Assembly: GCA_964643955.1 (NCBI GenBank)
Contig: CAZXUO010000001.1
Location: forward strand, 171,828-235,827
Reading direction: 5' to 3'
Length of the DNA: 64,000 bases
From: an uncultured Candidatus Saccharibacteria bacterium
GTDB taxonomy: Bacteria; Patescibacteriota; Minisyncoccia; Phycocordibacterales; UBA918
In this document: positions 29,677-44,846 of the stretch, in pieces
How the letters are laid out: every line of letters begins with the position of its first letter
Numbering within the stretch: position 1 is the first letter of the stretch
Notes under the pieces: model-generated
The model's database searches: none
What the model was told of the DNA's origin: nothing
What the model saw: the letters and a program-made list of their open reading frames with translations, nothing else
Made by a program: the position numbers and the translations under genes

Positions 29677-29709
29677 AGACTACTTCGTTGCAGTGGTACC
29701 ATTGTCCGG

Positions 29710-31316: not shown

Positions 31317-32537
31317 TTACCGCAACTCAACATCTTCCTCGATCTCTTCGTCATCACGTGACGGCATAAAAAGCAAATGTGAAATAAAGAACCAAATGAC
31401 AGAAAGAATTGTGGCAATCAACATCGGGAGGAAAAGACAATCGTACCAGAAGAAATATGAGAGTACCGCAACGACTGCATACCAACCCATATGCCAGTAG
31501 TGGTACGCCGACGGATTCCATGGGCGCATATCATGGTATCGCTCGCGGAAATCGAAGAAGAACCAGCCGATCATAAAGAGAAGTGCGAGGAGCCACCAGT
31601 CGCACAAGAGTAATAACTTATTGAGGAGCACCAGCACCACAACCATGAGTGCGGCAAAAATCGAGTTGCGTGAAAATGCACGGCGAGAGCCATACACTTC
31701 GTTTCGCAATCGCAGATCACGGATGAGAACCCAGCCATAAAAGATACCGAGCACGATGAGAAGTATCGGCATCACGCAGGCACAGTCAACCGAGATAATG
31801 TCAGAAACTCCTGCGACGATTCCGTCTGGCAACGTCGTGCTCCCTGTGCCCGTTGCTTCACCGAGCACCTGCGGCTCACCCGCACCTTCTGCTCCTGCTA
31901 CGCTTCCTGAAGGGACAAGTGGAACTGCAAACGGAAATCCGCCGCCAGTACCGAAGTCTTCAGGAGTTCCCGTGTCACCATCCCCGTCACCATCGCCGTC
32001 CCCGCTTGAGCGCGAACCACCGCCCCCTGTACTACCCCCTCCGTCACCATCCCCATCTCCGTCGCCATCACCACCCGAAGTTTCGCCATCGTCACATTCA
32101 AAATTCCCACCTGCAAACCCTATACAAAGATCAAACGAGAGCGATGCATACTGGTATTCATTTCCCGATTCAGGGAAGAATGTCATGCGATAGGTATAGA
32201 CCGTCGATGCGCCGTTTGAAAGTGTACTGAGCCCTACTTTTCCTGCTGTATCGAAATCGACAAATGATCCCGTGAAAAAATCTCCATTGTTGATGATGAC
32301 TCCCATTGCGTCGCCGAGTCCGTCGTCGTCAACCACATTGATAAGTTCGGTATATACACTCTTATCTTCACCGCTATTATTGGTGACCGTCACCGTCTTT
32401 GTGATGGTATCGCCCGGAAGAAAATTAGACTCACCGAAAAGCGGTACGGTCTCGAACTGCACCTCAAGTGGCGCGGCCTGCACACTGCCCGCAAAAAAGA
32501 AGAGTGAGACTGCGCAGATTGTAAGAAAATATTTCAT
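31317..32537 (-). CDS. Secreted and membrane-anchored protein: signal peptide, beta-rich domain, (GD)n linkers, an EPQVLGE motif and a C-terminal multi-TM domain
   Basis: GDGDGDGDGDGGG and GDGDGDGDGDTG low-complexity linkers. At least 5 C-terminal TM helices. Confidence 0.4.
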   Translation of the reverse strand: MKYFLTICAVSLFFFAGSVQAAPLEVQFETVPLFGESNFLPGDTITKTVTVTNNSGEDKSVYTELINVVDDDGLGDAMGVIINNGDFFTGSFVDFDTAGKVGLSTLSNGASTVYTYRMTFFPESGNEYQYASLSFDLCIGFAGGNFECDDGETSGGDGDGDGDGDGGGSTGGGGSRSSGDGDGDGDGDTGTPEDFGTGGGFPFAVPLVPSGSVAGAEGAGEPQVLGEATGTGSTTLPDGIVAGVSDIISVDCACVMPILLIVLGIFYGWVLIRDLRLRNEVYGSRRAFSRNSIFAALMVVVLVLLNKLLLLCDWWLLALLFMIGWFFFDFRERYHDMRPWNPSAYHYWHMGWYAVVAVLSYFFWYDCLFLPMLIATILSVIWFFISHLLFMPSRDDEEIEEDVELR

Positions 32538-32548
32538 AAATAAAATAA

Positions 32549-34633
32549 TTATTCGACCGGTGGCTCTGGCTCCGTCGTAGGTTCAGGCTCTGCGGGCGTC
32601 TCCTCTTCAGCAGGCGCTTCTTCGACTTCTTCTACAACATCTTCAACGACCATAAGATCATCTTCTGGCTGGACCTCGACAATTGGTTCTTCCTGCTCTT
32701 GCTCAACGGGTTCTACCACTGGCTCCGGCGGAAGAATATCTTCTTCACGCACGTCTCCAAGATCAGTAGAGCCGCCGGTCGATTGCTCATCGGTAGGTGG
32801 TGTCGCTTCAAGCACCGGCGCTGTCGACGATGCAGTTGAAGATGCCGTCGGCGTGACCGGTGCAATCTCCGGCGTAATCACTTCCTCTTCTGCAATGAGA
32901 AGCGCTTCAATTTCAGCATCAGTCATTTCAGGAAGTTCCTCAAGTCCTTCTGATATAGGAGCGACCTCAACACCTTCCATAGTGAAGCGAAGAATCTCGA
33001 TATCGTCTGATCCCGGATTGGTACCTGGATTTGGTGTCGCATTGAAAATCCAATCAGAAGCCGCGTCAGTGTCCCAGCCTTTCACCACGCGCGCGATCGA
33101 CTTGCCATCGAGTCCCGTGATGCCGACCGAAGGATTAAGCGCGACGGTATCGGTACCATAGCTTACTTGATCGACGACGACATCAGCGCCATCGCGGAGA
33201 ATCACGCGATCACCACCATCAGCGAGCCCATTGCCGAGCGATACGCCGAGCGCGATTTTAACCGCTGAAGCTGGGATGTCAGTCCAGTGGAGCGCAAATG
33301 TACTCGAGGCATTCGTGACGACCGCAAATCCATATGCAGGGATCGGTGTCGTAAGAAGCGGAATCATGTCGCAGCTCGTATTGTCACAAATATCCCATCC
33401 CGAAATATCAATCGGTGCAGCCGTCGGATTGTAAAGCTCTACCCACTCATTGTTTGTATCAGAGCCATGACCCGAATCTACATCATAGAAAACCTCGTTC
33501 ACGACCATGTGCGTGGTTGGTGCGACCGGCGCATCGATCGCCACCTCGAGGACTGGTCGTACATCGCTCTGACTTTGGTGCTCTGAGCTGCGGAACTTTC
33601 CCGAGCGGCTTCCGCTCTCAGGAAGCGCGTCGACATCCGCAAGCTTCCATCCATAGTTTGAGAAACTTCCATTTACAAAACCTGCGACATCACTCGTGAC
33701 ATCCCAGGACATCCACTTCGCATTCCCATCACCCGTACTCTCAGTGTCGGTCGGCGCAACCACCGCAGGCTTGCTATTCCACGTCACACTTCCCTCGCTC
33801 CACACTGCTGTCGCACGCGAGACTGCGTAATTGGTATTTGGCGTTGGTGCGGTGTAAAGATACGCCTTTAATTGTGCATCAGTGATGATCGAGCCGGGAG
33901 GAAGTGCGAAGTTGAATCCAACGAGCGCCTCAGAGTCCTTCGCACCAGACTGTCGACGAAGCTCAAGCTGCTGACTCGTGCCATTGTTGGTATTTGGCTG
34001 CTGCTCGTTTACATCAGTATCCATAATCGCTGCGATGTCAATCGTCGAAGTGCTTGTGTCGGACATGTTTTCCCACTGCGCTGTGGTGACGGCAAACGAT
34101 TCAGTCTCGACATCGTGATATGCCTTTCCTGAAGCAAAGCCAAACTGCCAACCATCAAACGTAATATCAAAATCGCAGGTCAGATTTGCGTATGAGCTGT
34201 CGACCGGCGGAAGCGAGGTGATGAAATCCCATGAGTTACCATCACCGGGGAAACTTGAGGTGCTGTGTGAGAAGCTTGCGAGCGGCCCCGTGTACACCGT
34301 GCTCGTTGCACGTTTTGCTTCGAGATTGAGTACGCCACAGAGTGGGCTCGTCGTCGCTGAAGTGAAAACGCGATATTCAAATGGCAATGAGTCGGTCGTG
34401 GTCGAAAGCGAGACAGGAAATGCCGGTGCACTGTTTTCAGGTGTGAGTCCGATGAATTCAGTCGTTGTGGTTGCGAGCATAAAATCAAGCTCTGCAGCAT
34501 CAAAAGAATTCTCTTCAGAAATTTCCGTATCGCTATAGTACGCCTGTGTGACACCCACTTGTGCGCAGCCGACCGTCGCAATGAGCGCGAATGCGAGTAC
34601 TTTTATTCCAAATTTATTTCTGAAGTTATGCAT
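32549..34633 (-). CDS. Large secreted protein (694 aa) with a SipW-cognate (TasA/camelysin-type) N-terminal signal
   Basis: The N-terminus ...GVTQAYYSDTEISEENSFDAAELDF matches the A[FY][FY]SDTE..(x)N.F.AG.LDL signature of SipW substrates. The C-terminal tail is Glu/Pro/Thr-rich. Confidence 0.55.
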   Translation of the reverse strand: MHNFRNKFGIKVLAFALIATVGCAQVGVTQAYYSDTEISEENSFDAAELDFMLATTTTEFIGLTPENSAPAFPVSLSTTTDSLPFEYRVFTSATTSPLCGVLNLEAKRATSTVYTGPLASFSHSTSSFPGDGNSWDFITSLPPVDSSYANLTCDFDITFDGWQFGFASGKAYHDVETESFAVTTAQWENMSDTSTSTIDIAAIMDTDVNEQQPNTNNGTSQQLELRRQSGAKDSEALVGFNFALPPGSIITDAQLKAYLYTAPTPNTNYAVSRATAVWSEGSVTWNSKPAVVAPTDTESTGDGNAKWMSWDVTSDVAGFVNGSFSNYGWKLADVDALPESGSRSGKFRSSEHQSQSDVRPVLEVAIDAPVAPTTHMVVNEVFYDVDSGHGSDTNNEWVELYNPTAAPIDISGWDICDNTSCDMIPLLTTPIPAYGFAVVTNASSTFALHWTDIPASAVKIALGVSLGNGLADGGDRVILRDGADVVVDQVSYGTDTVALNPSVGITGLDGKSIARVVKGWDTDAASDWIFNATPNPGTNPGSDDIEILRFTMEGVEVAPISEGLEELPEMTDAEIEALLIAEEEVITPEIAPVTPTASSTASSTAPVLEATPPTDEQSTGGSTDLGDVREEDILPPEPVVEPVEQEQEEPIVEVQPEDDLMVVEDVVEEVEEAPAEEETPAEPEPTTEPEPPVE

Positions 34634-35186
34634 GCGTATCAGTCTTTTCTGGTTCCTCTTTTGCTTCTTTTTTTGTTCGCAACTTTCTCAATTCATTCCA
34701 GAGTGCGACTCCCTCATCAAAAAGGACAAATCCTGCGGGAATGCCGATGAGTAATACGAAACCGAGCGGCTTCTTAGCAAAATCGAGGATGAATCCCATG
34801 TACGGAATCGAGAAGAAGACTTCTCCAAGTACCTGAGTACGCGGTATCGGCCGCGGATCAGGCGCGTTGTTGGCATCGCCTTTCGTGAGATACGAGATGC
34901 CACGACCGATCTCATCTACCTCGACGATGCGGTGCGTCGTCGGCACCTGATCGCCACGTTCAAAGTAGAAGGTGATGATATCACCCACTTGATAATCACC
35001 CGTTGGTCGCATCACAATGAGCGAGCCCGTCTTGATCTCAGGCTCCATCGAGCCGGACTGCACAATCTTTACTTCGAAGTTGCCTGGTACGGGCACGAGC
35101 GGCATGAGCAGCAGAAGACCAAGGAGAACCACTCCCACGATGAGTCCGTAATAGAGAATTGCGAAGAACTTTCCGATCATAAGCAT
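34626..35186 (-). CDS. sipW: Signal peptidase I, ER/archaeal type (SipW)
   Basis: SGSMEP box, a His-containing TTHRIV box (no Lys general base) and a TKGDANNAPD box. This differs from the P-type lepB at 5921. Confidence 0.75.
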   Translation of the reverse strand: MLMIGKFFAILYYGLIVGVVLLGLLLLMPLVPVPGNFEVKIVQSGSMEPEIKTGSLIVMRPTGDYQVGDIITFYFERGDQVPTTHRIVEVDEIGRGISYLTKGDANNAPDPRPIPRTQVLGEVFFSIPYMGFILDFAKKPLGFVLLIGIPAGFVLFDEGVALWNELRKLRTKKEAKEEPEKTDTHA

Positions 35187-35270
35187 ATCGAGGCTTAAAG
35201 ACTTAAGGCCTCATCCCTCCCCGCGATACTTCGCAGGGAGGGTGAGCCATCAAGACTTTAAAGAATTTCT

Positions 35271-37145
35271 TTAAAAGCCGAGAACGTCTCCGTTCAACAT
35301 GACGTCATCTACTTCAACAACCTGAGCTTTGTTGTACGTACCCATTCCTACTGATATACCGACAACTTTTGCTCCTGGATAAGCCGCAGCAAGCTGCTGA
35401 AGTGTGAAGTTGGTTGCGTATGCGCCACCTCCACCACTCACTCCGGCAGCTGTGGTAACTCCACTTGCCCACCACTTACCTTTTGTTTGATCGGCGCTCC
35501 ATGTCTGCTCAACACCAGTCATGATTGATGGTGGGTTGAGGTCATTGTGAGCGAAGATGTTGTAGTACGGTTCAAAGGTGATGTCCTTTGTAGTCGTACC
35601 CACACCATCTCCGTCGAGGTCAACAATGAGGCGAAGGCTCGCGTTTCCGTTTATAGGATCAAACGCTGAAACTTGCTTTGAGTCATACCTCACCATCGTG
35701 ACATCCTCTACATCGATATCTACACCGTAGTTGGTATAGCGAACGCGTGAGTTTACATCATCTGCAGTAACGAGCGTGATGAATCCATCCTCAACAACCA
35801 CATCTCCACCAGCTGATGATGTCTCAATCCACTCGTCCTCTTCTTCACCACCACCATTGTATTCTGCGATCACATCGGCGCATGAGAAGTCTGCGTTGTT
35901 GCGCTGCTGTACTGCGTATGCAGTGATGTCCGCAATGAGTGAGTCTGACTGTGATGCGTTGTCTACCGTAGAGCCATCACATTCGATCTCTCCATCATTG
36001 TTTGTCTGTGTACCTGCGCACCATGCGAGACCGAGGTATGCAGTTGTTGATGCAGTAAGACTGATCTCTTCTGGATTCCATGCATCTGCAAATGATGCGC
36101 CAGGACCAGCAATCACCGTCTCATCTCCTGCATCATATTCTCCATCTCCATTATCAACCCACGCGAAGAATTCAAGGACGCTGCCGAGCTCTCCAGTTGT
36201 AAGTCCATCTTCATCATCCTGTGATTCTGGCTCCGTCTGTGTATTGTCATCTTCCTCAATGTTATATGGGAAGACACACGCAAACGCATCATTGTCGAAC
36301 ACATGGAGTGAAATCACGTTTGTACCCCAGTCACCCGGCTTAATGTCGTTGAAGTTGAAGAACTTGTCTCCATCCGCAAGATCTTTTTCAGCCCAAAGGC
36401 GGCACATATTTTGGAAGTCTGTATCTGCAGCACATTCCTGTTCTGGACGTTCAATATTCAATTTGAACATCAAGCCTGCAGGGTTTGCTTCTGGTGTGCC
36501 GCCCTGTACTGCTTTGTTGCGAACGGTGATTTCAAGCACGTTCTCGCCAGTCTGTACCTCGGCCTGAAGTGCAGCTTGGAATGGCGCAGTATTTACAAGG
36601 TCGCCATAATTAAATTCAGTACCAAGATTGTTCACAATTTCTGTACCGTTGAGGACAATCTTGTAACCATTGTCAGCCGCAAGCGCAAGCGTAAGCGAGA
36701 TACCCGAAACGCCGCCATTCCACTGAAACTTGTTTTGGAATGTGTACTCTGCGTCTGTTGTGGTATCTGCCTGAAGCACTGGATTGGTTACCCAAATCCA
36801 CTGAGCAGGTGCAGCAGAAGCCTCTGGCTCCCATGCAGGGTGAACAAAACTCAACTCGACTGCATCCGTAGGAATTGGTCCTGCGTATGCACCATTGTCT
36901 GCAACAACGTCAGTACTTGCAGCAGACGAAAATACCGTCACGCTACATGTCTCACAGTCTGCGCCATTATACGTTTGCATTGCATGGTCTACCTTAAGAT
37001 CAATCGATCCAGCGGTAAACACGTTTCCTGCTGATGTCTCTGTATCACTGAAGAATGCGCCCGTTCCTGAGATCACAATCGCTGCGATTGCAGTGATGAG
37101 TCCGAGGCTCAAGAGCACTCGCTTTGTGTTAATAACTCCTGTCAT
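35271..37145 (-). CDS. Large secreted protein (624 aa) with a SipW-cognate signal (TasA-like)
   Basis: N-terminus ISGTGAFFSDTETSAGNVFTAGSIDLKVD is a near-canonical match to the SipW-cognate class. Confidence 0.6.
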   Translation of the reverse strand: MTGVINTKRVLLSLGLITAIAAIVISGTGAFFSDTETSAGNVFTAGSIDLKVDHAMQTYNGADCETCSVTVFSSAASTDVVADNGAYAGPIPTDAVELSFVHPAWEPEASAAPAQWIWVTNPVLQADTTTDAEYTFQNKFQWNGGVSGISLTLALAADNGYKIVLNGTEIVNNLGTEFNYGDLVNTAPFQAALQAEVQTGENVLEITVRNKAVQGGTPEANPAGLMFKLNIERPEQECAADTDFQNMCRLWAEKDLADGDKFFNFNDIKPGDWGTNVISLHVFDNDAFACVFPYNIEEDDNTQTEPESQDDEDGLTTGELGSVLEFFAWVDNGDGEYDAGDETVIAGPGASFADAWNPEEISLTASTTAYLGLAWCAGTQTNNDGEIECDGSTVDNASQSDSLIADITAYAVQQRNNADFSCADVIAEYNGGGEEEDEWIETSSAGGDVVVEDGFITLVTADDVNSRVRYTNYGVDIDVEDVTMVRYDSKQVSAFDPINGNASLRLIVDLDGDGVGTTTKDITFEPYYNIFAHNDLNPPSIMTGVEQTWSADQTKGKWWASGVTTAAGVSGGGGAYATNFTLQQLAAAYPGAKVVGISVGMGTYNKAQVVEVDDVMLNGDVLGF

Positions 37146-37214
37146 AACAGTTTGTAAAATTAATCTTTAAATAAATTTGATAAACCCACGCGCAGCTCTG
37201 GTGCTGAGCTGGTC

Positions 37215-37262
37215 TGGGTATAGAAAAAACGCCCCGCGCACGAATTACGTGCGAGAGGCGTT
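37215..37262. terminator. Long imperfect hairpin terminator (aacgccccgcgcacg aatta cgtgcgagaggcgtt) with A- and T-runs, embedded in a longer imperfect palindrome
   Basis: Located downstream of the sortase gene and upstream of the 624-aa gene. Confidence 0.55.
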
Positions 37263-38022: not shown

Positions 38023-38027
38023 AAGTC

Positions 38028-39815
38028 CTAGTTGGCGAATCGTCGGAGTGCGAAGCCTGCGCCAAGAATTGCGAGGAGTGCGAAGACTGATACAAGTGAT
38101 GTATCACCTGAAGTGCCTCCTGCACCCGCATTTGGTGCGCCAATCGGCATAATTTCCGTCTGCACGCCGAGAACCTGCGGTACTGGCTCGTCATCGTCAG
38201 AGCTTGAAGACGAGCGACGTGAACCTCCACCCCCACCTCCTCCGCCGCCACCTGAGTCATTGAGACCAAAGTGTGCAACGAGGTCAATATTTCCGCTCAT
38301 AACCACCGTACATGGCGTCGTATTGCCGATGCAGGTACCTGAGCCCGTTGTCCAGCTATTATCGAAGTTTGAGCCTTCGTTTGGAGTCACCACAAGCGTA
38401 ACTTCGGTTCCTTCTGGGTATGTTTCAGAGCAGTCATTCTCTTCATTTTCGCCCGTAAGACAGAAGATTGTCGTCGTCGCCACTTCGGTCTCATTACCCT
38501 CGATTTTTCCGTGACCATCGCCCGTTGTCGTAATCGTGAGTGTATAGCGACCATCACCGTCTCCATCACCGTCTCCATCTCCGTCGCCACCACCGTTTGT
38601 TGGCACCTCAGTACAGTCTACTTCGGTATTGCCGGTAAGTGTCATCTTGTAGAGGAGACCTGCTGGATTTGATTCAGTTGTCCCCCCTTCAAGCGCCCAG
38701 TTTTTCACTTCGATTGAGAGCGTATTTTCGCCCATAATTATTTCGCCACCAAATCCAGTGTAATTGGTCGATGTTCCGAAGTTATCTTCAACGCCACTCG
38801 ATGCAATCTCTGTACCATTAAGCTTCACCGAGTATGAGTTGTCAGCTGCTATATCGAGCACAGAGGCTGTCACGGGACCGTTCCAATCGAAGGTTTTCGT
38901 AAATGTCTGAATCGTCTCGTTGACCGGATCGACAACGGGATCATCACCCCAGATCCATGATGCACCATCGATTACTGCGTCCCATGCATCGTGGATGAAT
39001 GAAACAAGTACTGCCGCAGCACCATCTTCAGTATTTGTCGTGTCACTCACGATCGTGACCGAACACATCTGTGGTTCTGGATCGGTGTCATCAGGCTGTG
39101 CAATGAGACAAAGTTCGACATGATCAAGCAATGTACCCGATGCATTTGATACACCCTGATCCTCAAACGCGATCTCAGTTGACAAGCCGTCAGCAACAAA
39201 CGTCTCCTCATAGAATGACCAATCTGTATCAGAATTACCGGTACCGTCTGCTGTTATTGAGTTTTTCTCAATACCATCTATAAATACACCGAGAATGTTT
39301 TCACTCTCATCCGTTCCGGGTAGTGGAGAAAAAAAGAATTTCAATGCATACGTACCACCCAAAATCGTAGGGACGTCTTGCATAATTCGAACCGATGGCT
39401 GCTCATTCGGACCGTCATCAATACCGGGACCACTCCAATCTGAATCAAGTTCAGTGTAGTAATCACCATGATATGCGCTCCACCAACCTGTATTCCCATT
39501 GTCGATCTCAATATTTGCGGTCTCCGGTGCGCCATCAACATCATGCACCCATCCTGCCTCCCACTCGACACCGTTAGTACCTGATGGTATTACCTCCCAC
39601 TCCTCAATCAAAATATCATCGTCATCAAATGTCTGATCTTCAAAAGAACCGTTTTTGATAAGATTCTCTCCATACACGAGACACTGTGTGCCTTCGGTCT
39701 CGTGCTGCACGCCGGCGTAAACCGGATTAGAGAAAGTACCAGAAAAGACCATCGCAGATACCAGTAAAAATACTCCTACCTTCCGGACTCCAGAGGAAAT
39801 CATAACCGTATTCAT
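38028..39815 (-). CDS. Cell-surface protein (595 aa) carrying a (GD)n linker, a poly-Gly/Ser tract, a PQVLG motif, and a C-terminal hydrophobic anchor followed by a basic RRFAN tail
   Basis: The C-terminal architecture (hydrophobic segment followed by RR) resembles a sortase sorting signal, but no canonical LPXTG is present. Confidence 0.5.
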   Translation of the reverse strand: MNTVMISSGVRKVGVFLLVSAMVFSGTFSNPVYAGVQHETEGTQCLVYGENLIKNGSFEDQTFDDDDILIEEWEVIPSGTNGVEWEAGWVHDVDGAPETANIEIDNGNTGWWSAYHGDYYTELDSDWSGPGIDDGPNEQPSVRIMQDVPTILGGTYALKFFFSPLPGTDESENILGVFIDGIEKNSITADGTGNSDTDWSFYEETFVADGLSTEIAFEDQGVSNASGTLLDHVELCLIAQPDDTDPEPQMCSVTIVSDTTNTEDGAAAVLVSFIHDAWDAVIDGASWIWGDDPVVDPVNETIQTFTKTFDWNGPVTASVLDIAADNSYSVKLNGTEIASSGVEDNFGTSTNYTGFGGEIIMGENTLSIEVKNWALEGGTTESNPAGLLYKMTLTGNTEVDCTEVPTNGGGDGDGDGDGDGDGRYTLTITTTGDGHGKIEGNETEVATTTIFCLTGENEENDCSETYPEGTEVTLVVTPNEGSNFDNSWTTGSGTCIGNTTPCTVVMSGNIDLVAHFGLNDSGGGGGGGGGGSRRSSSSSDDDEPVPQVLGVQTEIMPIGAPNAGAGGTSGDTSLVSVFALLAILGAGFALRRFAN

Positions 39816-39891
39816 ACAGAAATATTATAAGTGGTTAACCCAAACGTGACGCCGTTCTAGCATATTTTGGGTTAACCCGCAACACCAAGGA

Positions 39892-41292
39892 TCAGATGTC
39901 GAAAAGACGCTCGACCAAACCGCGATTTGAAAGCGACACGAGGTATACAGTATCAGGATCAACAAAAATACCCGCTAGACCCATGTATTGCCAGCGATAC
40001 GAATCTTGGATGGTACGACGCATGGTAATTGAACTACGGGTAAGGTCGTAGACAATCAGGCCAGTTGGCGCCGTCGCTTGTACGACCGTTGAGCCACGTA
40101 CAACTGAGTCTGATTCCCGCACAATAGAGGGAAGATCAGTACGCGCTACGATGGTGCTTCCCGAATTATTTATTACATACCCGAAACCACCACCTGCTGC
40201 GTATGATCCCTGCACAAAAAATGCATCGATACCAGGGACGTACGCGACGTTATAAGTGTAATACTTCACTCCCGAAGTAATCTTTGTTGGAGCTTTTGTA
40301 AGCATACCGGTTGCAGGATCAAGTGCTGCAACATAGAGATCAACTGCAGTCGACCCAGGGACGAATCGTTGCCAGACAAGTAGGGCAGTTTGAGGTGATC
40401 CTGCAACAACAGGCCACCAATCACGTTCGTTACCAACAGAAACATTCACGGTGCGCTCAAGAGAACCATCGTTCTTTATGATTGCCGCATAGACGTCGTC
40501 TCCTGAACCGAGCCCATCGACACCTCCACCATCTACCCATCCTTCAGAGAAAAATACGACAAATTTATTACCGACTGCAGAGACGTGCCCCGAATGACCT
40601 CCCTCCATTACTGTTTGCGGGTATGATTTACGTACTCCAAGTTCCGAATCAAAAACCGCGTATCGTTGAGAAACTTCATACGAAGTATCCCACCCATCTT
40701 CGGTTGTAACGAGAATATTCCCATTTTGTGCAATGGCTGCGCTTGCTGGCTCCTGTGCTTCAGGCTTTGAGATGAGTGTTTGGGGAATAATTACTGGAGC
40801 ACGAGGATCAATAATGGACGCGTATATATCGTGAGTCCAATTCCAATCCTGTTTCGGATCTGCTCCTTTCGGAGGATTCCCCGAACTCGACCAAATGAGA
40901 TAGTGAGTTCCATCTGATCGAGGAAGAAAAGAAATTCCATGCTGAAACTCTCGAAGATCATCAGATGAAGGAGCGTCTTTTGCATTGTTGTAATAAGAAC
41001 TATTGTTACTGAGCTTTACCGAGATATGTGAGCCTGCAGCATCGGGCATGACATTAGGCGCAGCTTCTTCGGTATCTGATGTTTCCGTCATAATAACTTC
41101 CGTAGGATTCTCTACATTTTCCTCGACCTCAGTTTCAATCTCGCTCTCTGGAAGAATCGGTACAACCACAGACAAATCTTCTGCCGTATCTACATACTCC
41201 TCTCCCGGTGCATTCAATCTCTCATAATATGCAAAGGCACCCACCAAAACAGTGGATGCCAATACAATGCCGAGTGCTGCTTTTCGTACCAT
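39892..41292 (-). CDS. Hypothetical secreted or membrane-anchored protein (466 aa)
   Basis: An N-terminal TM segment with a Gly/Ser/Thr-rich body. No family recognised. Confidence 0.4.
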   Translation of the reverse strand: MVRKAALGIVLASTVLVGAFAYYERLNAPGEEYVDTAEDLSVVVPILPESEIETEVEENVENPTEVIMTETSDTEEAAPNVMPDAAGSHISVKLSNNSSYYNNAKDAPSSDDLREFQHGISFLPRSDGTHYLIWSSSGNPPKGADPKQDWNWTHDIYASIIDPRAPVIIPQTLISKPEAQEPASAAIAQNGNILVTTEDGWDTSYEVSQRYAVFDSELGVRKSYPQTVMEGGHSGHVSAVGNKFVVFFSEGWVDGGGVDGLGSGDDVYAAIIKNDGSLERTVNVSVGNERDWWPVVAGSPQTALLVWQRFVPGSTAVDLYVAALDPATGMLTKAPTKITSGVKYYTYNVAYVPGIDAFFVQGSYAAGGGFGYVINNSGSTIVARTDLPSIVRESDSVVRGSTVVQATAPTGLIVYDLTRSSITMRRTIQDSYRWQYMGLAGIFVDPDTVYLVSLSNRGLVERLFDI

Positions 41293-41339
41293 GAGTACTT
41301 ACGATACCGCACCTGTAGGTATCGTCAACGGAGTAGGTC

Positions 41340-43286
41340 CTATTCAACAAACATTTCCACACCATCAATATACGCATGCCCAACTGAACCTGCAGTGAGG
41401 TACACCTGGAGGGAAGCCTGAGTGACTTCTGCAGATGTCGGAGTATACACGTACGATTCATCAATGGTGAAACTGGTGCCTGTCTGACCGAGCCATTTTC
41501 CAGAAATCCAGTTGTCGTCCATATCGTATTCATCCATGTAGAATCCGAGTTCTCCTGACGTAAGATCGTTTGCGTTCGTGACGAAACGGACACCGTAGCG
41601 CGTGTTGAAGTCAACATCAATCTTCTTGCCGAAGACATGCGTCGCAGCATCATTACCTGTCATTTTTAATGCTGCATCCGGAGTTGGATATGCACCATTG
41701 CGTCCCATATCTATTTCAGCAAAATCAGCGTCACTCACCATCCATGAATCAGAGAGTCCATCCTCAAAACTTCCGTTCTCTACCATATTTGACCCAAACT
41801 CAAGCATCTCCTTCACTGTCTTTGCCTTAATACCGCGTGCTTCAAAAGCCTCCATGAGTGTCTCGAGCTTCTCAGTCGTCCATACATACTCGTATAGATT
41901 CTCCTCAGGAACAGTCACCGCAAATTCATGGAAGACAAGGACGAGCCAATGATCATTCTCAACGGCCGCATCAATGTGTACTTCAATCTCTTCAACTGTC
42001 GTACTGGTATGTACAGGGACAACATGGAGAAGATACTTATTGAACGGCCATTTGTTGAGGGAAACATGATTGAACGTTCGGTGGGAGTTGAAATTCTTTA
42101 TGACTTCAGCGAGCACATTTATGTCATATGCCCCATATGGTGAAGCGAAATTTTCTCCCAAAAATCCGTGATCTTCAAGATCCTCAATACTTTGCTCAAG
42201 TTCCTGGGTCACCTCTTCGGGCGATAGTGTCGGCAATTCCGCATGGGTGACGGTATGTGCACCCATTTCGACGTCAATCATGTGGAGACTGTCGAGGTCT
42301 GCCCATGTCATATGCCCTTCGGTACCGATTTGGCCTGTTGGAACATAAAGTGTCGCCTTCTGCTTGAACTGCTGAAGAACCGGAGCTGCGTACAGATATT
42401 GCGAAATGACCGCATCGTCGAACGTCAATGTGACGCCACCCTTTACAAACGGATTCTCAACAGGATCTACGTCAGGCGTATTGTCGAACGTAAGTGTAAC
42501 AATAGACGTCGTTGCCACATTAAGCGCATGATCGATTGCTGAAGCGTAAATAGTGTACTCACCGTCCGCAAAGAAAGCGGTATCAAGCGAAACGCTTGAT
42601 GGAGACGTGGTAGCAGCATCCCCAAAAGTAACTCCACCGACGAAGAATTGAATCTCTTTAAGGCCGCTCGTCACCTGACCAAGTACCACTGGATCAGTCG
42701 AAGACGCTTCGAGCGAAATAACTCCCGAGACCGTAGCACTTACCGAAGGAGCGATAAGTGTAATGATAGGTGTGGTCGTATCAGCATCATCAGTAGGGAC
42801 AGGCTCTTCTTCACCGCCAGAGTCAGTTGTTGTGCCGGTATTAACCTCTTCATTTGAACTTGAGCCACCACCTCCACCCGAACGTCGGCGCGGCTTCTTT
42901 TCCCCGGTCGTATCATCAGAAGTATCACCCGCATCCGCTACTGTCGTTGTTCCTGCAACCGTAGGAACGGGAGAATTCGCAAAAAAATCAAAAGGTTCTT
43001 CAAAAAGTGGACCATTCAATAGCGTAGACGAAACGTCAGACGGATTTGAAGACTCTTGTTCTTCTTCCACATCTTCATCGTCTGTTTCTTCTGAAGCTGG
43101 ATCTACATCGTTAACATCTGAAAATTCAACTGAAGCAGTCTGATCATCCGACCTCTCGAACATACCTGCATTAAGAAACAGGAAACCTACAAAAAACAGT
43201 ATCGCGACAGAGAGTGCTCCTGCCGTATACCACAACTTCTTATTATCTTCTTTTTTAAAAATATTATTCATAGCTTCTTTGTACAC
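41340..43286 (-). CDS. Polysaccharide deacetylase (CE4, NodB homology; IcaB/PgaB-like) with an N-terminal TM segment and a C-terminal beta-sandwich domain
   Basis: NodB motifs TLTFDDA, HTVTHAEL and ASPYG. The acidic linker near the N-terminus is rich in Asp and Thr. Confidence 0.7.
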   Translation of the reverse strand: MYKEAMNNIFKKEDNKKLWYTAGALSVAILFFVGFLFLNAGMFERSDDQTASVEFSDVNDVDPASEETDDEDVEEEQESSNPSDVSSTLLNGPLFEEPFDFFANSPVPTVAGTTTVADAGDTSDDTTGEKKPRRRSGGGGGSSSNEEVNTGTTTDSGGEEEPVPTDDADTTTPIITLIAPSVSATVSGVISLEASSTDPVVLGQVTSGLKEIQFFVGGVTFGDAATTSPSSVSLDTAFFADGEYTIYASAIDHALNVATTSIVTLTFDNTPDVDPVENPFVKGGVTLTFDDAVISQYLYAAPVLQQFKQKATLYVPTGQIGTEGHMTWADLDSLHMIDVEMGAHTVTHAELPTLSPEEVTQELEQSIEDLEDHGFLGENFASPYGAYDINVLAEVIKNFNSHRTFNHVSLNKWPFNKYLLHVVPVHTSTTVEEIEVHIDAAVENDHWLVLVFHEFAVTVPEENLYEYVWTTEKLETLMEAFEARGIKAKTVKEMLEFGSNMVENGSFEDGLSDSWMVSDADFAEIDMGRNGAYPTPDAALKMTGNDAATHVFGKKIDVDFNTRYGVRFVTNANDLTSGELGFYMDEYDMDDNWISGKWLGQTGTSFTIDESYVYTPTSAEVTQASLQVYLTAGSVGHAYIDGVEMFVE

Positions 43287-43295
43287 TTGGTAATG

Positions 43296-43538
43296 TTATT
43301 GATTTATCTGTAAACCCAGGTCGTGTATGCTCACCTGACGCAACGCACCCTTATATTTCCTGAGATTTATAAAAAATCTGATGAGCATGAGTACTGAGAG
43401 CCCAAACGAGATTATTGTAAAGATTAGAAATATCCGTGCCAAAATGATATTGCCGGAAGAGTTTAGCAAAAAAGCCGTCGCGACCGCGAGCGGCATCGAT
43501 GACAAAGTTGAGATCACTGTCCCTCCGTGCAGATTCAT
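43296..43538 (-). CDS. Small two-TM membrane protein, positioned like IcaD/PgaD
   Basis: 80 aa with two hydrophobic helices, lying between the processive GT2 and the CE4 deacetylase. Confidence 0.35.
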   Translation of the reverse strand: MNLHGGTVISTLSSMPLAVATAFLLNSSGNIILARIFLIFTIISFGLSVLMLIRFFINLRKYKGALRQVSIHDLGLQINQ

Positions 43539-43607
43539 AGTCGTACCGAATTACTACACGACCTGTGTATCATGCTTTCTTGGCTTTGGCAAGTTTTAGA
43601 AAGTATT

Positions 43608-44846
43608 TTACCCACTTCGTGTGCCCCATCCTTTTGTATATCCCACTTTAAGGAACATCTTCCTAAGACCACGCATAAATGACGTATCCGGGATTGATAC
43701 GCTCACTACATTAAACAACCAAAATAGATATGACCCCAGTAACACAAGCGTTAATAAATTCGCATATATAAATTCCGGCACGAGTGATATTCGAAGCAAC
43801 CAATCTATACGATCCTTATCAGCATAAAACTTCATGAGCCAAAGCTGGAAACTATACCAAAGAATAACTTGAGCGAGTGAGAGCGCAATAATACATTGAA
43901 ATATCACATGTGACATCACCCCTCTTTCTGCAAACATATACGACACGATAATAAGAAAGAGTGTCCCCACAAACATGACATGCCCGATAATATCCTGGAT
44001 GATACCCGGTGCGAACTTCATCTCCGACACAACGGTTACACCTCCATAGACCCATCGTGTGCGTTGTCTCCATAGATGGGAAAATCTTGCAGGCACTTCA
44101 GTCCATGCGTATGCATGTGGCGCAAGGCGGACATGCCAACCGAGAGACTTAATACGAGAAGTAATCTCATAATCCTCGATAAGGTGCCCTTCTTTAAAGC
44201 CTCCGACCGCATAGAGCACGTCCGCACGAAATGCCGTAAGCATACCGTGCATAACGAGCGGACCATAAAAAAATCCTTCGTCGGCAAGGCGTGTTGCGTT
44301 AAAACCAAGGTATTCAAGCCCCTGAAGGCGGGTCAAGAAATTAGCATTCTTATTGAGCACGCGACATTGCGAACATGCTGCGCCGATACGCTCATCGGAA
44401 AGCACGCCATGTACGAGTGCCTTCACTGTGTTTCTATCGACAACGACATCATCATCGAGTGTAAGAATAATATCGGGACGCACGCCGGCATCTCGCATAG
44501 AAAAAAGTGCATAATTTATTGCACCTGCCTTCATCTTATTAACAGGAGTCCGAAGCAATGTCACCCGATCCGACATCTTTGCTATTGAAGCAAAATAAGC
44601 GTACTCATGTTCATACGACTCTGGAGTACAGTCATCAACAACGTAAATGCACAATTCGTCGTTCCAACGAAGAAGGTCAGAAACGAGCTTTACAGTGAGT
44701 GGACCGGGCTTAAATGAAGGAATGATGGCGACAACAGCACAAGGATGTGATGTTGCTGACTGCACCTTGTTTTGAAATCGGTGAGGAACAACAAAACTCG
44801 CAATATGCTGCATTGACGAAATTGAGTTTTGTGAAAAATCACCCAT
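43608..44846 (-). CDS. Processive GT2 polysaccharide synthase (IcaA/PgaC/NodC-like)
   Basis: VVDDC, LDDDVVV, EDYEIT and RQRTRW (QxxRW-type) motifs, plus C-terminal TM helices. Confidence 0.7.
   Translation of the reverse strand: MGDFSQNSISSMQHIASFVVPHRFQNKVQSATSHPCAVVAIIPSFKPGPLTVKLVSDLLRWNDELCIYVVDDCTPESYEHEYAYFASIAKMSDRVTLLRTPVNKMKAGAINYALFSMRDAGVRPDIILTLDDDVVVDRNTVKALVHGVLSDERIGAACSQCRVLNKNANFLTRLQGLEYLGFNATRLADEGFFYGPLVMHGMLTAFRADVLYAVGGFKEGHLIEDYEITSRIKSLGWHVRLAPHAYAWTEVPARFSHLWRQRTRWVYGGVTVVSEMKFAPGIIQDIIGHVMFVGTLFLIIVSYMFAERGVMSHVIFQCIIALSLAQVILWYSFQLWLMKFYADKDRIDWLLRISLVPEFIYANLLTLVLLGSYLFWLFNVVSVSIPDTSFMRGLRKMFLKVGYTKGWGTRSG

What the first reader, a model, noticed from the sequence alone, without database searches (positions are those of the whole stretch)
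31317..44846. 13.5-kb co-oriented 'matrix supercluster' fusing a PNAG-like EPS module, a sortase locus and a SipW/TasA-like fibre locus
Nine consecutive minus-strand genes encode the following, in order. A processive GT2 synthase, a small two-TM protein and a CE4 deacetylase, in the icaA-icaD-icaB order. A secreted 466-aa protein of unknown type. A 595-aa surface protein. A sortase. Then a 624-aa SipW-substrate-like protein, sipW itself, a 694-aa SipW-substrate-like protein, and finally a membrane-anchored (GD)n protein. In Bacillus and staphylococci the EPS operon, tapA-sipW-tasA and the sortase loci are separate. Here they appear contiguous and co-oriented, separated by only one internal terminator (37215-37262). 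This predicts a single inducible surface-matrix programme. The two TasA-like proteins are 2.5 times larger than TasA and may form a different kind of fibre.
Basis: partly seen in the sequence, partly recalled or inferred. Interest (0 to 1): 0.8.

Follow-up and report, generated by a model that had tools for sequence, protein, structure and literature searches.

The report
TasA-type fibre cassette beside add-on modules
The ten genes are real, but they are not one conserved "supercluster": the part conserved across ultra-small (CPR/Patescibacteria) bacteria is a four-gene TasA/SipW cassette that probably builds a sugar-binding surface fibre anchored in the membrane, and in this lineage a polysaccharide module and a sortase module sit next to it.

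Summary
- a GT2 synthase with QRTRW
- a conserved 80-aa two-TM partner
- a CE4 deacetylase
- a class F sortase
- an archaeal-type SipW peptidase
- a 624-aa protein with a SipW-type signal peptide

The "fused supercluster" reading does not hold.
- The nearest relative (~90% nt identity) lacks GT2/80-aa/CE4/466-aa at this site.
- Among 53 TasA-anchored loci from Patescibacteria genomes, sortase is nearby in 3 and GT2 in 1.
- A strong terminator (37222-37262) and two further hairpins divide the run.

What is conserved is the order TasA-like (1-4 copies), SipW, LTD protein, membrane protein. SipW is present in 41 of 41 loci, and the strict order holds in 28 of 41.

Best model (inferred): a donor-strand fibre with an adhesin tip, a lectin shaft and a membrane anchor. 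I rate it a new variant of a known kind.

The parts
43608..44846 (-). Membrane GT2 synthase (412 aa) of the processive cellulose/chitin/PNAG/hyaluronan-synthase type. Part of the accessory polysaccharide module.
   Evidence: Pfam Glyco_trans_2_3 84 bits and Chitin_synth_2 32 bits. NCBIfam best hit is PgaC_IcaA at 97.7 bits, far below the 422 cutoff. Motifs DD71, DDD131, ED224 and QRTRW261, with three C-terminal TM helices and no N-terminal TM helix in the hydropathy scan. Closest solved relatives are 6yv7 and hyaluronan synthases. Absent from the nearest relative at this site.
43296..43538 (-). 80-aa two-TM protein, a conserved partner of the GT2. It occupies the IcaD/PgaD position, but no homology to those proteins was detected.
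   Evidence: TM helices at 7-25 and 31-49. A homolog lies directly downstream of the GT2 on the same strand in 30 of 36 related metagenome loci. No Pfam or NCBIfam family. Public gene calls choose the opposite-strand ORF 43381-43599, which has no homolog outside identical contigs.
41340..43286 (-). Membrane-anchored multidomain CE4 polysaccharide deacetylase (648 aa from a GTG start; the public call is 643 aa from the ATG at 43271).
   Evidence: Polysacc_deac_1 59 bits at aa 282-394. HfsH 51.7 and IcaB 17 bits are both far below their cutoffs. TFDD288 and HTVTH344 metal-site motifs, and a TM helix at 25-43. Best solved relative is 6dq3. A CE4 follows GT2 plus the small protein in 10 of 36 related loci.
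39892..41292 (-). Secreted 466-aa protein. Residues 104-466 form an uncharacterised domain of about 360 aa, probably carbohydrate-active.
   Evidence: No Pfam or NCBIfam hit. 156 cluster representatives among 1.84 billion. In other proteins the domain is fused to CE4 (P0148, P0162, P0193), to F5/8 type C, to GDSL esterase and to SLH. Only a weak Kelch-propeller match in PDB sequences. No homolog in any of the 90 or so related loci except identical contigs.
39833..39877 (-). Stem-loop between the 466-aa gene and the 595-aa gene. Possibly a weak terminator or processing site.
   Evidence: strand folding: 12-bp perfect stem, region -27.1 kcal/mol, z = -3.2.
38028..39815 (-). 595-aa surface protein and candidate sortase substrate. 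Domain order: signal peptide, choice-of-anchor-C-like domain, CBM67-like lectin domain (aa 249-393), InlB-B-repeat-like domain, Gly/Ser linker, C-terminal sorting signal.
   Evidence: TIGR04362 40.8 bits (below cutoff) and Flg_new_2 31 bits. 40% identity over 167 aa to the inserted domain of the 624-aa protein, E = 5e-26. The C-terminus QVLGVQTEIMPIGAPNAGAGG, followed by a hydrophobic stretch and RRFAN, is conserved in L001 and L005 (APNTG in L005). The N-terminal 245 aa belong to the segment that differs from the nearest relative.
37390..38022 (-). Class F sortase (210 aa).
   Evidence: NF033748 180.7 bits against a cutoff of 166; Pfam Sortase 74.6 bits. Motifs GHVD119 (catalytic His120), TCT185 (Cys186) and RYS196 (Arg196), with an N-terminal TM helix. 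Found next to the TasA cassette only in L001, L002, L005 and L015.
37222..37262 (-). Intrinsic terminator (A-tract, GC hairpin, U6) between the sortase gene and the TasA-like gene.
   Evidence: Sequence read directly. Fold -31 kcal/mol, z = -7.9. The whole 244-nt spacer has z = -5.1.
35271..37145 (-). 624-aa TasA-family protein, the predicted major fibre subunit. It has a SipW-type signal peptide and a donor-strand-like N-terminus (AFFSDTETSAGNVFTAGSIDL). The core spans aa 8-65 plus 250-425. A CBM67-like lectin domain (about aa 66-249; 36399-36950) is inserted in the core, and an extra C-terminal beta-jelly-roll follows (aa 430-624).
   Evidence: TIGR04088 21.7 bits against 19; PF12389 23.1 against 22.5, N-terminus only. 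More than 459 homologs, nearly all from Patescibacteria MAGs; where a source gives a functional name it is 'TasA family protein' or 'SipW-dependent-type signal peptide-containing protein'. Paralogs without the insertion align to 8-65 plus 250-424. The profile of those paralogs hits only TasA (5of1, 8aur) in the whole PDB, E = 0.04-0.06. The insertion hits Pleurotus lectin 6t1d/6kbj (E about 4e-6) and the rhamnosidase 3w5m that holds CBM67. AF2 model pLDDT 84, with residues 26-44 disordered. Fold searches return CBM-type jelly rolls.
35209..35248 (-). Very stable GC-rich hairpin without a U-tract, between the 624-aa gene and sipW. Possibly an attenuator or mRNA-stabilising element that raises the ratio of major subunit to accessory proteins.
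   Evidence: strand folding: region -46.1 kcal/mol, z = -5.6, 0 of 200 shuffles as stable. The function is inferred.
34626..35186 (-). SipW-type (archaeal/ER-type) signal peptidase I (186 aa).
   Evidence: TIGR02228 109.8 bits against 51.85. The Bacillus SipW equivalog scores 122 bits, below its cutoff of 190. Motifs SGSMEP44, THRI84 and GDAN103, with N- and C-terminal TM helices. Present in 41 of 41 related loci that have at least 5 kb downstream.
32549..34633 (-). 694-aa minor component, predicted TapA-like tip or nucleator. It has a SipW-type signal and a donor-strand-like N-terminus (AYYSDTEISEENSFDAAELDF). Then come a small TasA-fold-related beta-domain (aa about 47-160), CBM96/DNRLRE (199-364), LTD (371-493) and an acidic, Pro-rich tail.
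   Evidence: CBM96 73 bits, LTD 52.6 bits, DNRLRE 87 bits. The N-terminus matches the TasA-like paralog profile (hmmsearch E = 2.5e-8; hhalign Prob 98.3, E = 1.8e-14). The beta-domain is homologous to the N-domain of the 406-aa protein (hhalign Prob 97.8, E = 8e-13). The L063 homolog passes PF12389 (23.5 against 22.5). The N-terminal motif is conserved in nearly all of 41 homologs. A homolog follows SipW in 33 of 41 loci.
31317..32537 (-). 406-aa membrane-anchored TasA-fold protein, the predicted fibre base or terminator. It has an ordinary signal peptide (AQA|AP). A TasA-fold domain (aa 21-154; 32076-32477) lacks a donor strand. A (GD)n/Gly linker and C-terminal TM helices (aa 247-374) follow.

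Best explanation
The region is a lineage-specific juxtaposition of separable envelope modules in a Patescibacteria (Paceibacteria-like) chromosome. It is not one conserved unit.

(1) Core: 31317-37145, the genes for the 624-aa TasA-family protein, SipW, the 694-aa LTD protein and the 406-aa membrane protein. This cassette is conserved across Patescibacteria. It most likely builds a TasA-type fibre by donor-strand exchange.
- SipW removes the special signal peptides of the 624- and 694-aa proteins. This exposes an N-terminal strand of the form A-F/Y-F/Y-x-D-x-E-x-S-x-x-N-x-F-x-A-G.
- 624-aa subunits polymerise into the shaft. Each displays an inserted CBM67-like lectin domain and a C-terminal jelly roll.
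- The 694-aa protein has the strand plus CBM96 and LTD domains. It sits at the strand-donating end, like TapA, as an adhesive tip or nucleator.
- The 406-aa protein has a TasA-fold domain but no strand of its own, and it has a C-terminal membrane anchor. It accepts the last free strand and so ties the fibre to the cell.

(2) 37390-39815: a class F sortase and its probable substrate. This wall-anchored protein carries the same lectin domain. The pair is found only in the closest relatives.

(3) 39892-44846: the GT2 synthase, its 80-aa two-TM partner, CE4 and the 466-aa protein. This is an ica/pga-like but non-orthologous module. It probably makes and partly deacetylates a beta-linked N-acetylhexosamine polymer. 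It is an accessory segment absent from the nearest relative.

Shown: gene content, family matches, the TasA fold of the 406-aa protein's N-domain, the homologies between parts, and the conservation pattern.

Inferred: polymerisation, the tip-shaft-base order, SipW specificity, the polymer's chemistry, and any binding of the lectin domains to that polymer or to host glycans.
For: Modularity:
- Nearest relative L001 has 1.57 kb where the window has 5.9 kb.
- Outgroup L005 has surface protein, sortase, T, W, L, M and no GT2 or CE4.
- Of 41 TasA-anchored loci with at least 5 kb downstream, SipW is in 41, an LTD-type protein in 33, a 406-type protein in 35, and the strict order T+WL+M in 28. Across all 53 loci, sortase is nearby in 3 and GT2 in 1.
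- The GT2 plus small-protein pair is conserved on its own in 30 of 36 loci, CE4 follows in 10, and the TasA cassette follows in 1.
- A terminator and two hairpins divide the run.
- There is a GC step between the variable segment and the cassette.

Fibre model:
- TIGR04088 and PF12389 are both above their cutoffs.
- The only PDB sequence hits of the insertion-free paralog profile are TasA.
- The beta-domains of the 694- and 406-aa proteins are homologous, E = 8e-13. The N-termini of the 694-aa protein and the TasA-like paralogs are homologous, E = 1.8e-14.
- The donor-strand motif is present in nearly all L-type proteins, in 79 of 113 T-type ORFs (strict motif) and in 0 of 37 M-type proteins. 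A TM anchor is present in 35 of 37 M-type against 1 of 113 T-type.
- The N-terminal segment 26-44 of the 624-aa model is disordered.
- Established knowledge: TasA polymerises through its N-terminal donor strand, and TapA mimics that strand (PMC9674648).

Lectin domains.

Polysaccharide module: motifs and family scores. The 466-aa domain is fused to CE4 in other organisms.
Against: - The profile comparison of the 406-aa N-domain with the TasA-like core is weak (E = 0.0055, probability 7%).
- No multimer modelling was possible, so the tip-shaft-base order rests on domain logic.
- The 694-aa protein also has a beta-domain whose own complementation state is unknown.
- The GT2-CE4 module does recur next to a TasA cassette in L063 (same strand) and L040 (divergent). 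Some functional link therefore cannot be excluded.
- The shared lectin domain links the sortase substrate to the fibre subunit.
- The product of the GT2 is unknown.
Confidence: 0.6

Rival explanations
1. The ten genes form one functional 'matrix supercluster', expressed as a single inducible programme, in which EPS, sortase-anchored protein and TasA-like fibres are made together. The lectin domains on the fibre and on the sortase substrate bind the polymer made by the GT2/CE4 module.
For: - All ten genes are co-oriented with short gaps.
- The CBM67-like domain is shared by the 595- and 624-aa proteins.
- GT2, the small protein and CE4 lie directly upstream of a TasA cassette on the same strand in an independent locus, L063. 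They lie next to one, divergently, in L040.
- A second polysaccharide cluster converges on the other side.
Against: - The nearest relative lacks the EPS module at this site.
- Adjacency is seen in 1 of 53 TasA-anchored and 1 of 36 GT2-anchored loci. This is not clearly above the roughly 2% expected by chance in a genome of about 1000 genes.
- A strong terminator and two hairpins lie inside the run.
- The GC content differs between the modules.
- A ten-gene co-oriented run also occurs elsewhere in the window.
- In C. perfringens a sortase gene next to sipW is functionally unrelated to the fibre.
Confidence: 0.15
2. The TasA-family proteins are not fibre subunits. They are monomeric, secreted or surface glycan-binding proteins (or camelysin-like proteases) that merely use a SipW-type signal peptide. 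The 406-aa protein is an unrelated membrane protein with an Ig-like ectodomain.
For: - Similarity to PF12389 is confined to the signal peptide and the first strand.
- Most of the mass of the 624-aa protein is CBM-like.
- No experimental data exist for any member.
Against: - The post-cleavage N-terminal strand motif is conserved across T- and L-type proteins in about 40 genomes. A signal peptide alone would not need this.
- The 406-aa ectodomain's best structural match in the PDB is specifically the fibre form of TasA. Other donor-strand fibre subunits follow in the list.
- The three classes co-occur in a fixed order.
- The complementary pattern fits donor-strand logic: strand without anchor in T and L types, anchor without strand in M type.
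Confidence: 0.15
3. Free matrix fibres, as in Bacillus. The 624-aa protein forms released extracellular TasA-like fibres. The 694-aa protein is a TapA-like nucleator. The 406-aa protein is a chaperone or assembly platform, like CapP of B. cereus or the membrane-anchored PamC/D of the CPR Pam pilus. It is not a structural anchor.
For: - TapA-like logic applies to the 694-aa protein.
- Accessory chaperone-like proteins exist in the B. cereus and Pam systems.
- A strand-less TasA fold could transiently cap subunits.
Against: - A stoichiometric chaperone would not need the long Gly-rich and FN3-like stalk seen in most family members.
- Nothing tested here distinguishes transient from permanent strand acceptance.
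Confidence: 0.1

Closest known systems
tapA-sipW-tasA of Bacillus subtilis, and sipW-tasA-capP-calY of B. cereus
   Same: A dedicated archaeal-type signal peptidase is encoded next to its substrates. The substrates carry a SipW-type signal peptide followed by a conserved N-terminal strand. There is one major subunit class and one minor protein (TapA-like, here the 694-aa protein) that shares only the N-terminal strand. A TasA jelly-roll fold is demonstrated here for the 406-aa N-domain (PMC9674648).
   Different: - The gene order is subunit(s), sipW, minor protein, anchor.
- The subunit has a CBM67-like lectin domain inserted into the core, plus a C-terminal jelly roll.
- The minor protein carries CBM96 and LTD domains.
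- A fourth, conserved component is a TasA-fold protein with a C-terminal membrane anchor and no donor strand. It has no counterpart in the Bacillus operons.
- The Bacillus SipW equivalog HMM is not met (122 bits against 190).
- The host is a CPR bacterium.
Pam pili of CPR bacteria (Ca. Mycosynbacter amalyticus; bioRxiv 10.64898/2026.03.03.709456)
   Same: A CPR-specific, Sec-dependent surface filament that assembles by donor-strand exchange. The published model has a tip pilin, shaft pilins and a membrane-anchored terminator (PamR). This is the same architecture logic as proposed here.
   Different: - Pam pilins are two-domain Ig-like proteins whose linker strand is donated. They have membrane-anchored PapD-like chaperones and no dedicated signal peptidase.
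- They occur mainly in Saccharimonadia and Microgenomatia.
- The present cassette is TasA-type with SipW. Most named hosts of related loci are Paceibacteria/Parcubacteria-type lineages (Kaiser-, Zambryski-, Nealson-, Vogel-, Nomurabacteria).
- The paper does not mention TasA or signal peptidase.
Archaeal bundling pili (AbpA/AbpB) and other TasA-like archaeal fibres
   Different: The archaeal operon has no dedicated peptidase. It has no lectin insertion and no membrane-anchored strand-less member described.
icaADBC / pgaABCD poly-beta-1,6-GlcNAc (PNAG) systems
   Same: A GT2 synthase with the D, D, D, Q-x-x-R-W signature. A small two-TM protein is encoded immediately downstream, followed by an extracytoplasmic CE4 deacetylase, in the same order as icaA-icaD-icaB.
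   Different: - The equivalog models are far from met (PgaC_IcaA 97.7 bits against 422; IcaB 17 against 248).
- The 80-aa protein has no detectable similarity to IcaD or PgaD.
- There is no IcaC or PgaA.
- The CE4 carries extra Ig-like and CBM-like domains.
- An additional 466-aa domain of unknown fold takes the place where PgaB has its hydrolase-like domain.
- The product is unknown.
srtB next to the sipW-bsaABCRSD operon in Clostridium perfringens
   Same: A sortase gene lies immediately 5' of a sipW/TasA-like fibre operon (PMC7395162).
   Different: - It is a different sortase class.
- There the sortase was shown to be dispensable for the fibre.
- Here the sortase has its own adjacent substrate, which shares a lectin domain with the fibre subunit.

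Membership tests
TasA/camelysin family (PF12389) with SipW-dependent signal (TIGR04088) | SipW-dependent-type signal peptide model at or above its cutoff | tested here: met
   624-aa protein: TIGR04088 21.7 bits against a cutoff of 19. The 694-aa protein is not listed at E <= 0.01, but its N-terminus matches the paralog profile (E = 2.5e-8; hhalign E = 1.8e-14).
TasA/camelysin family (PF12389) with SipW-dependent signal (TIGR04088) | Pfam PF12389 at or above the gathering score over the domain | tested here: inconclusive
   The score is above the cutoff (23.1 against 22.5), but only profile positions 6-49 of 196 are matched. The same holds for ten insertion-free paralogs. The L063 homolog of the 694-aa protein scores 23.5 bits on positions 10-78.
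TasA/camelysin family (PF12389) with SipW-dependent signal (TIGR04088) | TasA jelly-roll fold | tested here: inconclusive
TasA/camelysin family (PF12389) with SipW-dependent signal (TIGR04088) | Polymerisation by N-terminal donor-strand exchange | not testable with these tools
   No multimer prediction or experiment was available. Indirect support only: a conserved N-terminal motif and a disordered segment 26-44 in the monomer model.
SipW (ER/archaeal-type signal peptidase I) | Archaeal-type SPase I model at or above its cutoff, with Ser/His/Asp boxes | tested here: met
   TIGR02228 109.8 bits against 51.85. SGSMEP44, THRI84 and GDAN103 are present.
SipW (ER/archaeal-type signal peptidase I) | Bacillus SipW equivalog (NF046067) | tested here: not met
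   122.3 bits against a cutoff of 190. It works like SipW but is not an ortholog by NCBI's criterion.
PNAG synthesis (icaADBC/pgaABCD) | PgaC/IcaA equivalog model | tested here: not met
   TIGR03937 97.7 bits against a cutoff of 422.3, although the alignment is full-length.
PNAG synthesis (icaADBC/pgaABCD) | IcaB/PgaB-type deacetylase | tested here: not met
   TIGR03933 17.1 bits against 248. Only the generic CE4 domain is met (Polysacc_deac_1 59 bits).
PNAG synthesis (icaADBC/pgaABCD) | Small two-TM partner (IcaD/PgaD) encoded after the synthase | tested here: inconclusive
   An 80-aa two-TM protein is conserved in this position in 30 of 36 loci. No family hit or sequence similarity to IcaD or PgaD was detected.
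PNAG synthesis (icaADBC/pgaABCD) | Product is poly-beta-1,6-GlcNAc | not testable with these tools
   Needs chemistry. The closest solved relatives are an archaeal membrane GT2 and hyaluronan synthases.
Class F sortase system | Class F sortase model at or above its cutoff, with the His-Cys-Arg triad | tested here: met
   NF033748 180.7 bits against 166. Motifs GHVD119 (catalytic His120), TCT185 (Cys186) and RYS196 (Arg196).
Class F sortase system | Adjacent substrate with a tripartite sorting signal (LPXTG-like motif, hydrophobic stretch, basic tail) | tested here: inconclusive
   The 595-aa protein ends with MPIGAPNAGAGG, then 19 hydrophobic residues, then RRFAN. The motif is APNAG (APNTG in L005), not LPXTG. 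Cleavage was not tested.

The most novel reading that the evidence does not exclude
Paceibacteria-type CPR bacteria assemble a cell-anchored, lectin-studded pilus of the TasA type, previously undescribed. A SipW-processed LTD/CBM96 adhesin with a TapA-like strand forms the tip. TasA-fold subunits with an inserted CBM67-like lectin form the shaft. A TasA-fold protein that has lost its donor strand and gained a membrane anchor terminates the fibre and tethers it. This would be a second, independent donor-strand pilus system in CPR, beside Pam pili. It would be a candidate device for attaching to hosts or glycans.
Probability: 0.4. Interest if true: 0.75.

Novelty: new variant of a known kind. 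Interest (0 to 1): 0.55.

Why it matters
CPR/Patescibacteria are mostly uncultured, ultra-small and thought to live attached to other cells. How they attach is largely unknown beyond type IV pili and the Pam pili described in 2026. This work defines a four-part TasA/SipW cassette found in dozens of Paceibacteria-type genomes. It has a built-in lectin, an LTD/CBM adhesin and a membrane-anchored TasA-fold protein. That gives a concrete, testable candidate for a second attachment fibre.

It would also extend TasA biology. TasA is so far known as a released matrix fibre with a soluble nucleator; here it would be a cell-tethered pilus with a dedicated strand-less terminator.

For annotation, the result shows that the apparent 13.5-kb 'supercluster' should be split into modules. 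It also shows that a conserved 80-aa synthase partner is being mis-called on the wrong strand in public assemblies.

Tried and rejected
- Pfam scans of ten insertion-free paralogs were run in the hope of a full-length PF12389 match. Only the N-terminal 50 or so profile positions matched.
- BLASTP of the 694- and 406-aa proteins against the 624-aa protein found nothing. The relationships appeared only with profiles.
- The simple terminator scan missed the real terminator, and its 12 hits equal the shuffled expectation. It was replaced by direct folding.
- Attempts to name the source organism failed. Exact look-ups of window proteins returned an unnamed NCBI contig of 244 kb and Logan contigs.
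- The profile of the 466-aa family against PDB sequences gave only a marginal match to a designed Kelch propeller.
- I considered that the 80-aa ORF might be spurious, because public gene calls prefer the opposite strand. I rejected this because of its conservation in 30 of 36 loci.
- I considered Pam pili as the identity of the cassette. I rejected this because the folds, accessory proteins and taxa differ.
- Four literature searches found no description of this cassette.

Full report
**1. What is in the sequence**

Ten ORFs run head-to-tail on the minus strand from 44846 to 31317, at exactly the coordinates given.

- 43608-44846 is a membrane GT2 of the processive type (Glyco_trans_2_3, 84 bits). 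Its motifs are DD71, DDD131, ED224 and QRTRW261, and it has three C-terminal TM helices.
- 43296-43538 encodes an 80-aa protein with two TM helices and no family match.
- 41340-43286 is a CE4 deacetylase (Polysacc_deac_1, 59 bits) with TFDD and HTVTH motifs.
- 39892-41292 has no family match.
- 38028-39815 is a surface protein with a C-terminal hydrophobic segment and an RRFAN tail.
- 37390-38022 is a class F sortase (180.7 bits against a cutoff of 166).
- 35271-37145 has a SipW-cognate signal peptide (TIGR04088, 21.7 bits against 19). It also matches PF12389 (23.1 bits against 22.5), but only over the first 44 residues.
- 34626-35186 is an archaeal-type signal peptidase I (109.8 bits against 51.85).
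- 32549-34633 carries CBM96/DNRLRE and LTD domains.
- 31317-32537 has no family match.

It has an A-tract, a GC hairpin and a U6 tail (-31 kcal/mol, z = -7.9).

It is not the only internal structure. A very stable hairpin without a U-tract lies between the 624-aa gene and sipW (about 35209-35248, z = -5.6). A 12-bp stem lies between the 466-aa and 595-aa genes (about 39833-39877, z = -3.2).

Co-orientation carries little weight by itself, because another run of ten co-oriented ORFs lies at 5921-14218. The window is chromosomal, with RNase P RNA, five tRNAs, LeuRS, LepA, MurJ and TsaD.

**2. Whose genome, and how the region varies**

The 624-aa protein has more than 459 homologs. Nearly all come from Patescibacteria/CPR metagenome-assembled genomes (Parcubacteria/Paceibacterota, Nealson-, Zambryski- and Kaiserbacteria). 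Most carry no name; where a source gives a functional one it is "TasA family protein" or "SipW-dependent-type signal peptide-containing protein".

The nearest relative is L001 (GCA_020049755.1), which is about 90% identical in DNA on both sides. Its order is PrsW, LeuRS, then an 827-aa surface protein, sortase, TasA-like, SipW, CBM96/LTD protein and a 408-aa protein. Between LeuRS and the conserved C-terminal half of the surface protein it has 1.57 kb. The window has 5.9 kb there (39079-44965).

GT2, the 80-aa gene, CE4, the 466-aa gene and the N-terminal domain of the 595-aa protein therefore form a variable segment. Its GC content is 0.456, against 0.485-0.524 for the cassette genes. A more distant relative, L005, also has surface protein, sortase, T, W, L, M and no GT2 or CE4.

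**3. Synteny survey**

I scanned one genome per species with an alignment of the TasA-like family and recovered 53 loci, all from CPR bacteria apart from a few that are probably mis-binned. Removing duplicate copies and adding the loci found by direct look-up of homologs again left 53 non-redundant loci. I searched all their ORFs with the ten window proteins.

Among the 41 loci with at least 5 kb downstream:

| Feature | Loci |
|---|---|
| SipW homolog | 41 of 41 |
| LTD-type protein (694-aa class) | 33 of 41 |
| 406-aa-type protein | 35 of 41 |
| Strict order: TasA-like (1-4 copies), SipW, LTD-type, 406-type | 28 of 41 |

These are lower bounds, because the queries were single sequences. Across all 53 loci, sortase was nearby in 3 and GT2 in 1 (L040, on the opposite strand).

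The reciprocal scan was anchored on the GT2 and gave 36 metagenome loci.

- The 80-aa protein follows the GT2 in 30 of 36, so it is a genuine, conserved partner.
- CE4 follows in 10.
- The 466-aa protein follows in none.
- A TasA cassette follows in one locus, L063. There the order is GT2, small protein, CE4, a 390-aa ORF, two TasA-like genes, SipW and an LTD protein, all on one strand.

The juxtaposition therefore recurs, but rarely. The rate is about what chance would give for two common modules in genomes of about 1000 genes.

**4. The conserved cassette**

*The 624-aa protein.* Short paralogs (240-300 aa) from other loci align to residues 8-65 and 250-424 of the 624-aa protein. Residues about 66-249 are therefore an insertion.

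- A family profile places the insertion with the Pleurotus lectin (6t1d, 6kbj; E about 4e-6) and the rhamnosidase 3w5m that contains CBM67.
- Fold searches of the AF2 model (pLDDT 84) return CBM-type jelly rolls for it and for the extra C-terminal domain.
- The same lectin domain occurs in the 595-aa sortase substrate (40% identity, E = 5e-26).
- A profile of the insertion-free paralogs, searched against every PDB sequence, hits only TasA (5of1 at E = 0.043; 8aur at E = 0.06). The KPGD and C-terminal Q-x-D-S...F-x-F motifs are colinear. This is weak but specific.
- The direct fold test of the core was inconclusive.

Other donor-strand fibre subunits follow in the list: DUF1102 (7.4), CanX (7.3), AbpA (7.0), the PapG and FimH pilin domains (6.7) and the Sulfolobus thread (6.3).

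The family architecture is an ordinary signal peptide, this domain, a Gly-rich linker, usually an FN3-like domain, and one or more C-terminal TM helices with a basic tail.

*The 694-aa protein.* Its N-terminus (AYYSDTEISEENSFDAAELDF) matches the N-terminus of the TasA-like paralogs (hhalign Prob 98.3, E = 1.8e-14). The beta-domain that follows is homologous to the 406-aa N-domain (Prob 97.8, E = 8e-13). The alignment with the 406-aa protein begins right after that protein's AQA|AP cleavage site, so the 406-aa protein lacks the strand.

*Across genomes.* The pattern is complementary.

| Class | Donor-strand motif | TM helix beyond residue 150 |
|---|---|---|
| T-type (624-aa class) | 79 of 113 (strict motif) | 1 of 113 |
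| L-type (694-aa class) | nearly all of 41 | 4 of 42 |
| M-type (406-aa class) | 0 of 37 | 35 of 37 |

**5. How it most likely works**

In B. subtilis, TasA polymerises because the N-terminal strand of each subunit completes the sandwich of the next subunit. TapA carries a look-alike strand and supplies the first one (PMC9674648).

Applying that logic here gives a unique linear order, whichever end grows.

- The 694-aa protein has the strand plus CBM96 and LTD domains. It sits at the strand-donating end, like TapA, as the tip.
- The 624-aa subunits form the shaft and display their lectin domains.
- The 406-aa protein can accept a strand but has none to give. It closes the other end and ties the fibre to the membrane.

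SipW would process the two strand-bearing proteins. The 406-aa protein has an ordinary signal peptide.

This is inference. Polymerisation, cleavage specificity and ligand binding were not tested. The architecture parallels the model recently proposed for the unrelated Pam pili of other CPR classes, which have a tip pilin PamT and a membrane-anchored terminator PamR (bioRxiv 10.64898/2026.03.03.709456).

**6. The other two modules**

*Sortase module.* The 595-aa protein ends with QVLGVQTEIMPIGAPNAGAGG, a hydrophobic stretch and RRFAN. This ending is conserved in L001 and L005, where L005 has APNTG. It is a plausible LPXTG-like sorting signal. The pair probably yields a wall-anchored lectin protein.

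The pair occurs only in the nearest relatives. There it takes the position where most genomes have a short TasA paralog. In C. perfringens a sortase gene also lies 5' of sipW-bsaA, and it is dispensable for the fibre (PMC7395162).

*Polysaccharide module.* The order GT2, two-TM protein, CE4 mirrors icaA-icaD-icaB. The equivalog models fail by a wide margin (PgaC_IcaA 97.7 bits against 422; IcaB 17 against 248). I therefore describe it as working like an ica/pga system, not as a member of that family.

The 466-aa protein belongs to a small family of 156 representatives. In other organisms its domain of about 360 aa is fused to CE4, to discoidin-type domains, to GDSL esterase or to SLH domains. 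This suggests a carbohydrate-active partner of the deacetylase. The fold is unknown.

**7. Novelty and verdict**

PF12389 members in Patescibacteria have been noted only as a taxonomic distribution (PMC9245690). Four literature searches found no description of this cassette.

- The "supercluster / single programme" interpretation is only partly supported.
- The more interesting result is the conserved CPR cassette with a lectin-inserted subunit, an LTD/CBM96 TapA-like protein and a membrane-anchored TasA-fold protein that lacks a donor strand. I rate this a new variant of a known kind.
- Interest is 0.55. The probability that it is a genuine cell-anchored TasA-type pilus is about 0.4.

Noticed in passing
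window 23728-31302 (+): A second envelope-polysaccharide cluster converges on the finding, ending 14 bp from the stop of the 406-aa gene. Its genes are GT2, GH8, a BcsA-like GT2 (Cellulose_synt hit), a PMT_2 glycosyltransferase with a LysM domain, and a second GH8. Its GC content is low (0.443 against 0.494 for the window). It looks like a cellulose-type synthase/endoglucanase module.
   Followed up: partly
window 43381-43599 (+) versus 43296-43538 (-): Public gene calls on identical contigs (Logan SRR12762303/4) annotate a 72-aa ORF on the plus strand here. The overlapping 80-aa minus-strand ORF is the one conserved after the GT2 in 30 of 36 related loci. This is a likely systematic mis-annotation of a small membrane partner.
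   Followed up: yes
window 38160-38190 and 31860-31875 (protein level: 595-aa protein aa 546-552; 406-aa protein aa 222-228): Both the sortase substrate and the membrane-anchored TasA-fold protein carry a P-Q-V-L-G-x-x-T motif a few dozen residues before their membrane segment. L001 and L005 homologs have it too. Its meaning is unknown; it could be a processing or recognition site.
   Followed up: partly
window 35209-35248 (-): An unusually stable GC-rich hairpin (z = -5.6) without a U-tract lies directly after the major-subunit gene and before sipW. It is reminiscent of the read-through terminator after bsaA in C. perfringens, which sets subunit-to-accessory stoichiometry.
   Followed up: partly
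window 39892-41292 (-); proteins P0148, P0162, P0193, P0202: The domain of about 360 aa in the 466-aa protein defines a small uncharacterised family (156 representatives). In other organisms it is fused to CE4 deacetylase, F5/8 type C, GDSL esterase and SLH domains. It is a candidate new carbohydrate-active domain.
   Followed up: partly
window 35274-35858 (-) (624-aa protein aa 430-624): The C-terminal jelly-roll extension of the TasA-like protein is present only in the five closest homologs. Most family members stop at about 430 aa, and two (P0048, P0094) carry an Ice_binding (PF11999) domain instead. The C-terminus seems to be a swappable display position.
   Followed up: no
window 58623-63953 (-): A 1776-aa protein with seven CARDB repeats, probably another giant surface protein. 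It lies next to RNase P RNA (57657-58022), a DUF192 protein and a TPR protein.
   Followed up: no
window 31317-32537 (-) versus homologs P0123-P0135: Most homologs of the 406-aa protein have an FN3-like Pur_ac_phosph_N (PF16656) domain between the TasA-fold domain and a single TM anchor. The window's version lacks it and instead has four predicted TM helices.
   Followed up: partly
L063 (SDBT01000198.1) 9983-21049 and L040 (CAINCQ010000009.1) 606-12332: These are the only two other loci where a GT2/CE4 module lies next to a TasA/SipW cassette. In L063 they are on the same strand with a 390-aa ORF of unknown family between them. In L040 they are divergent, and the CE4 carries four Big_7 domains.
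   Followed up: partly
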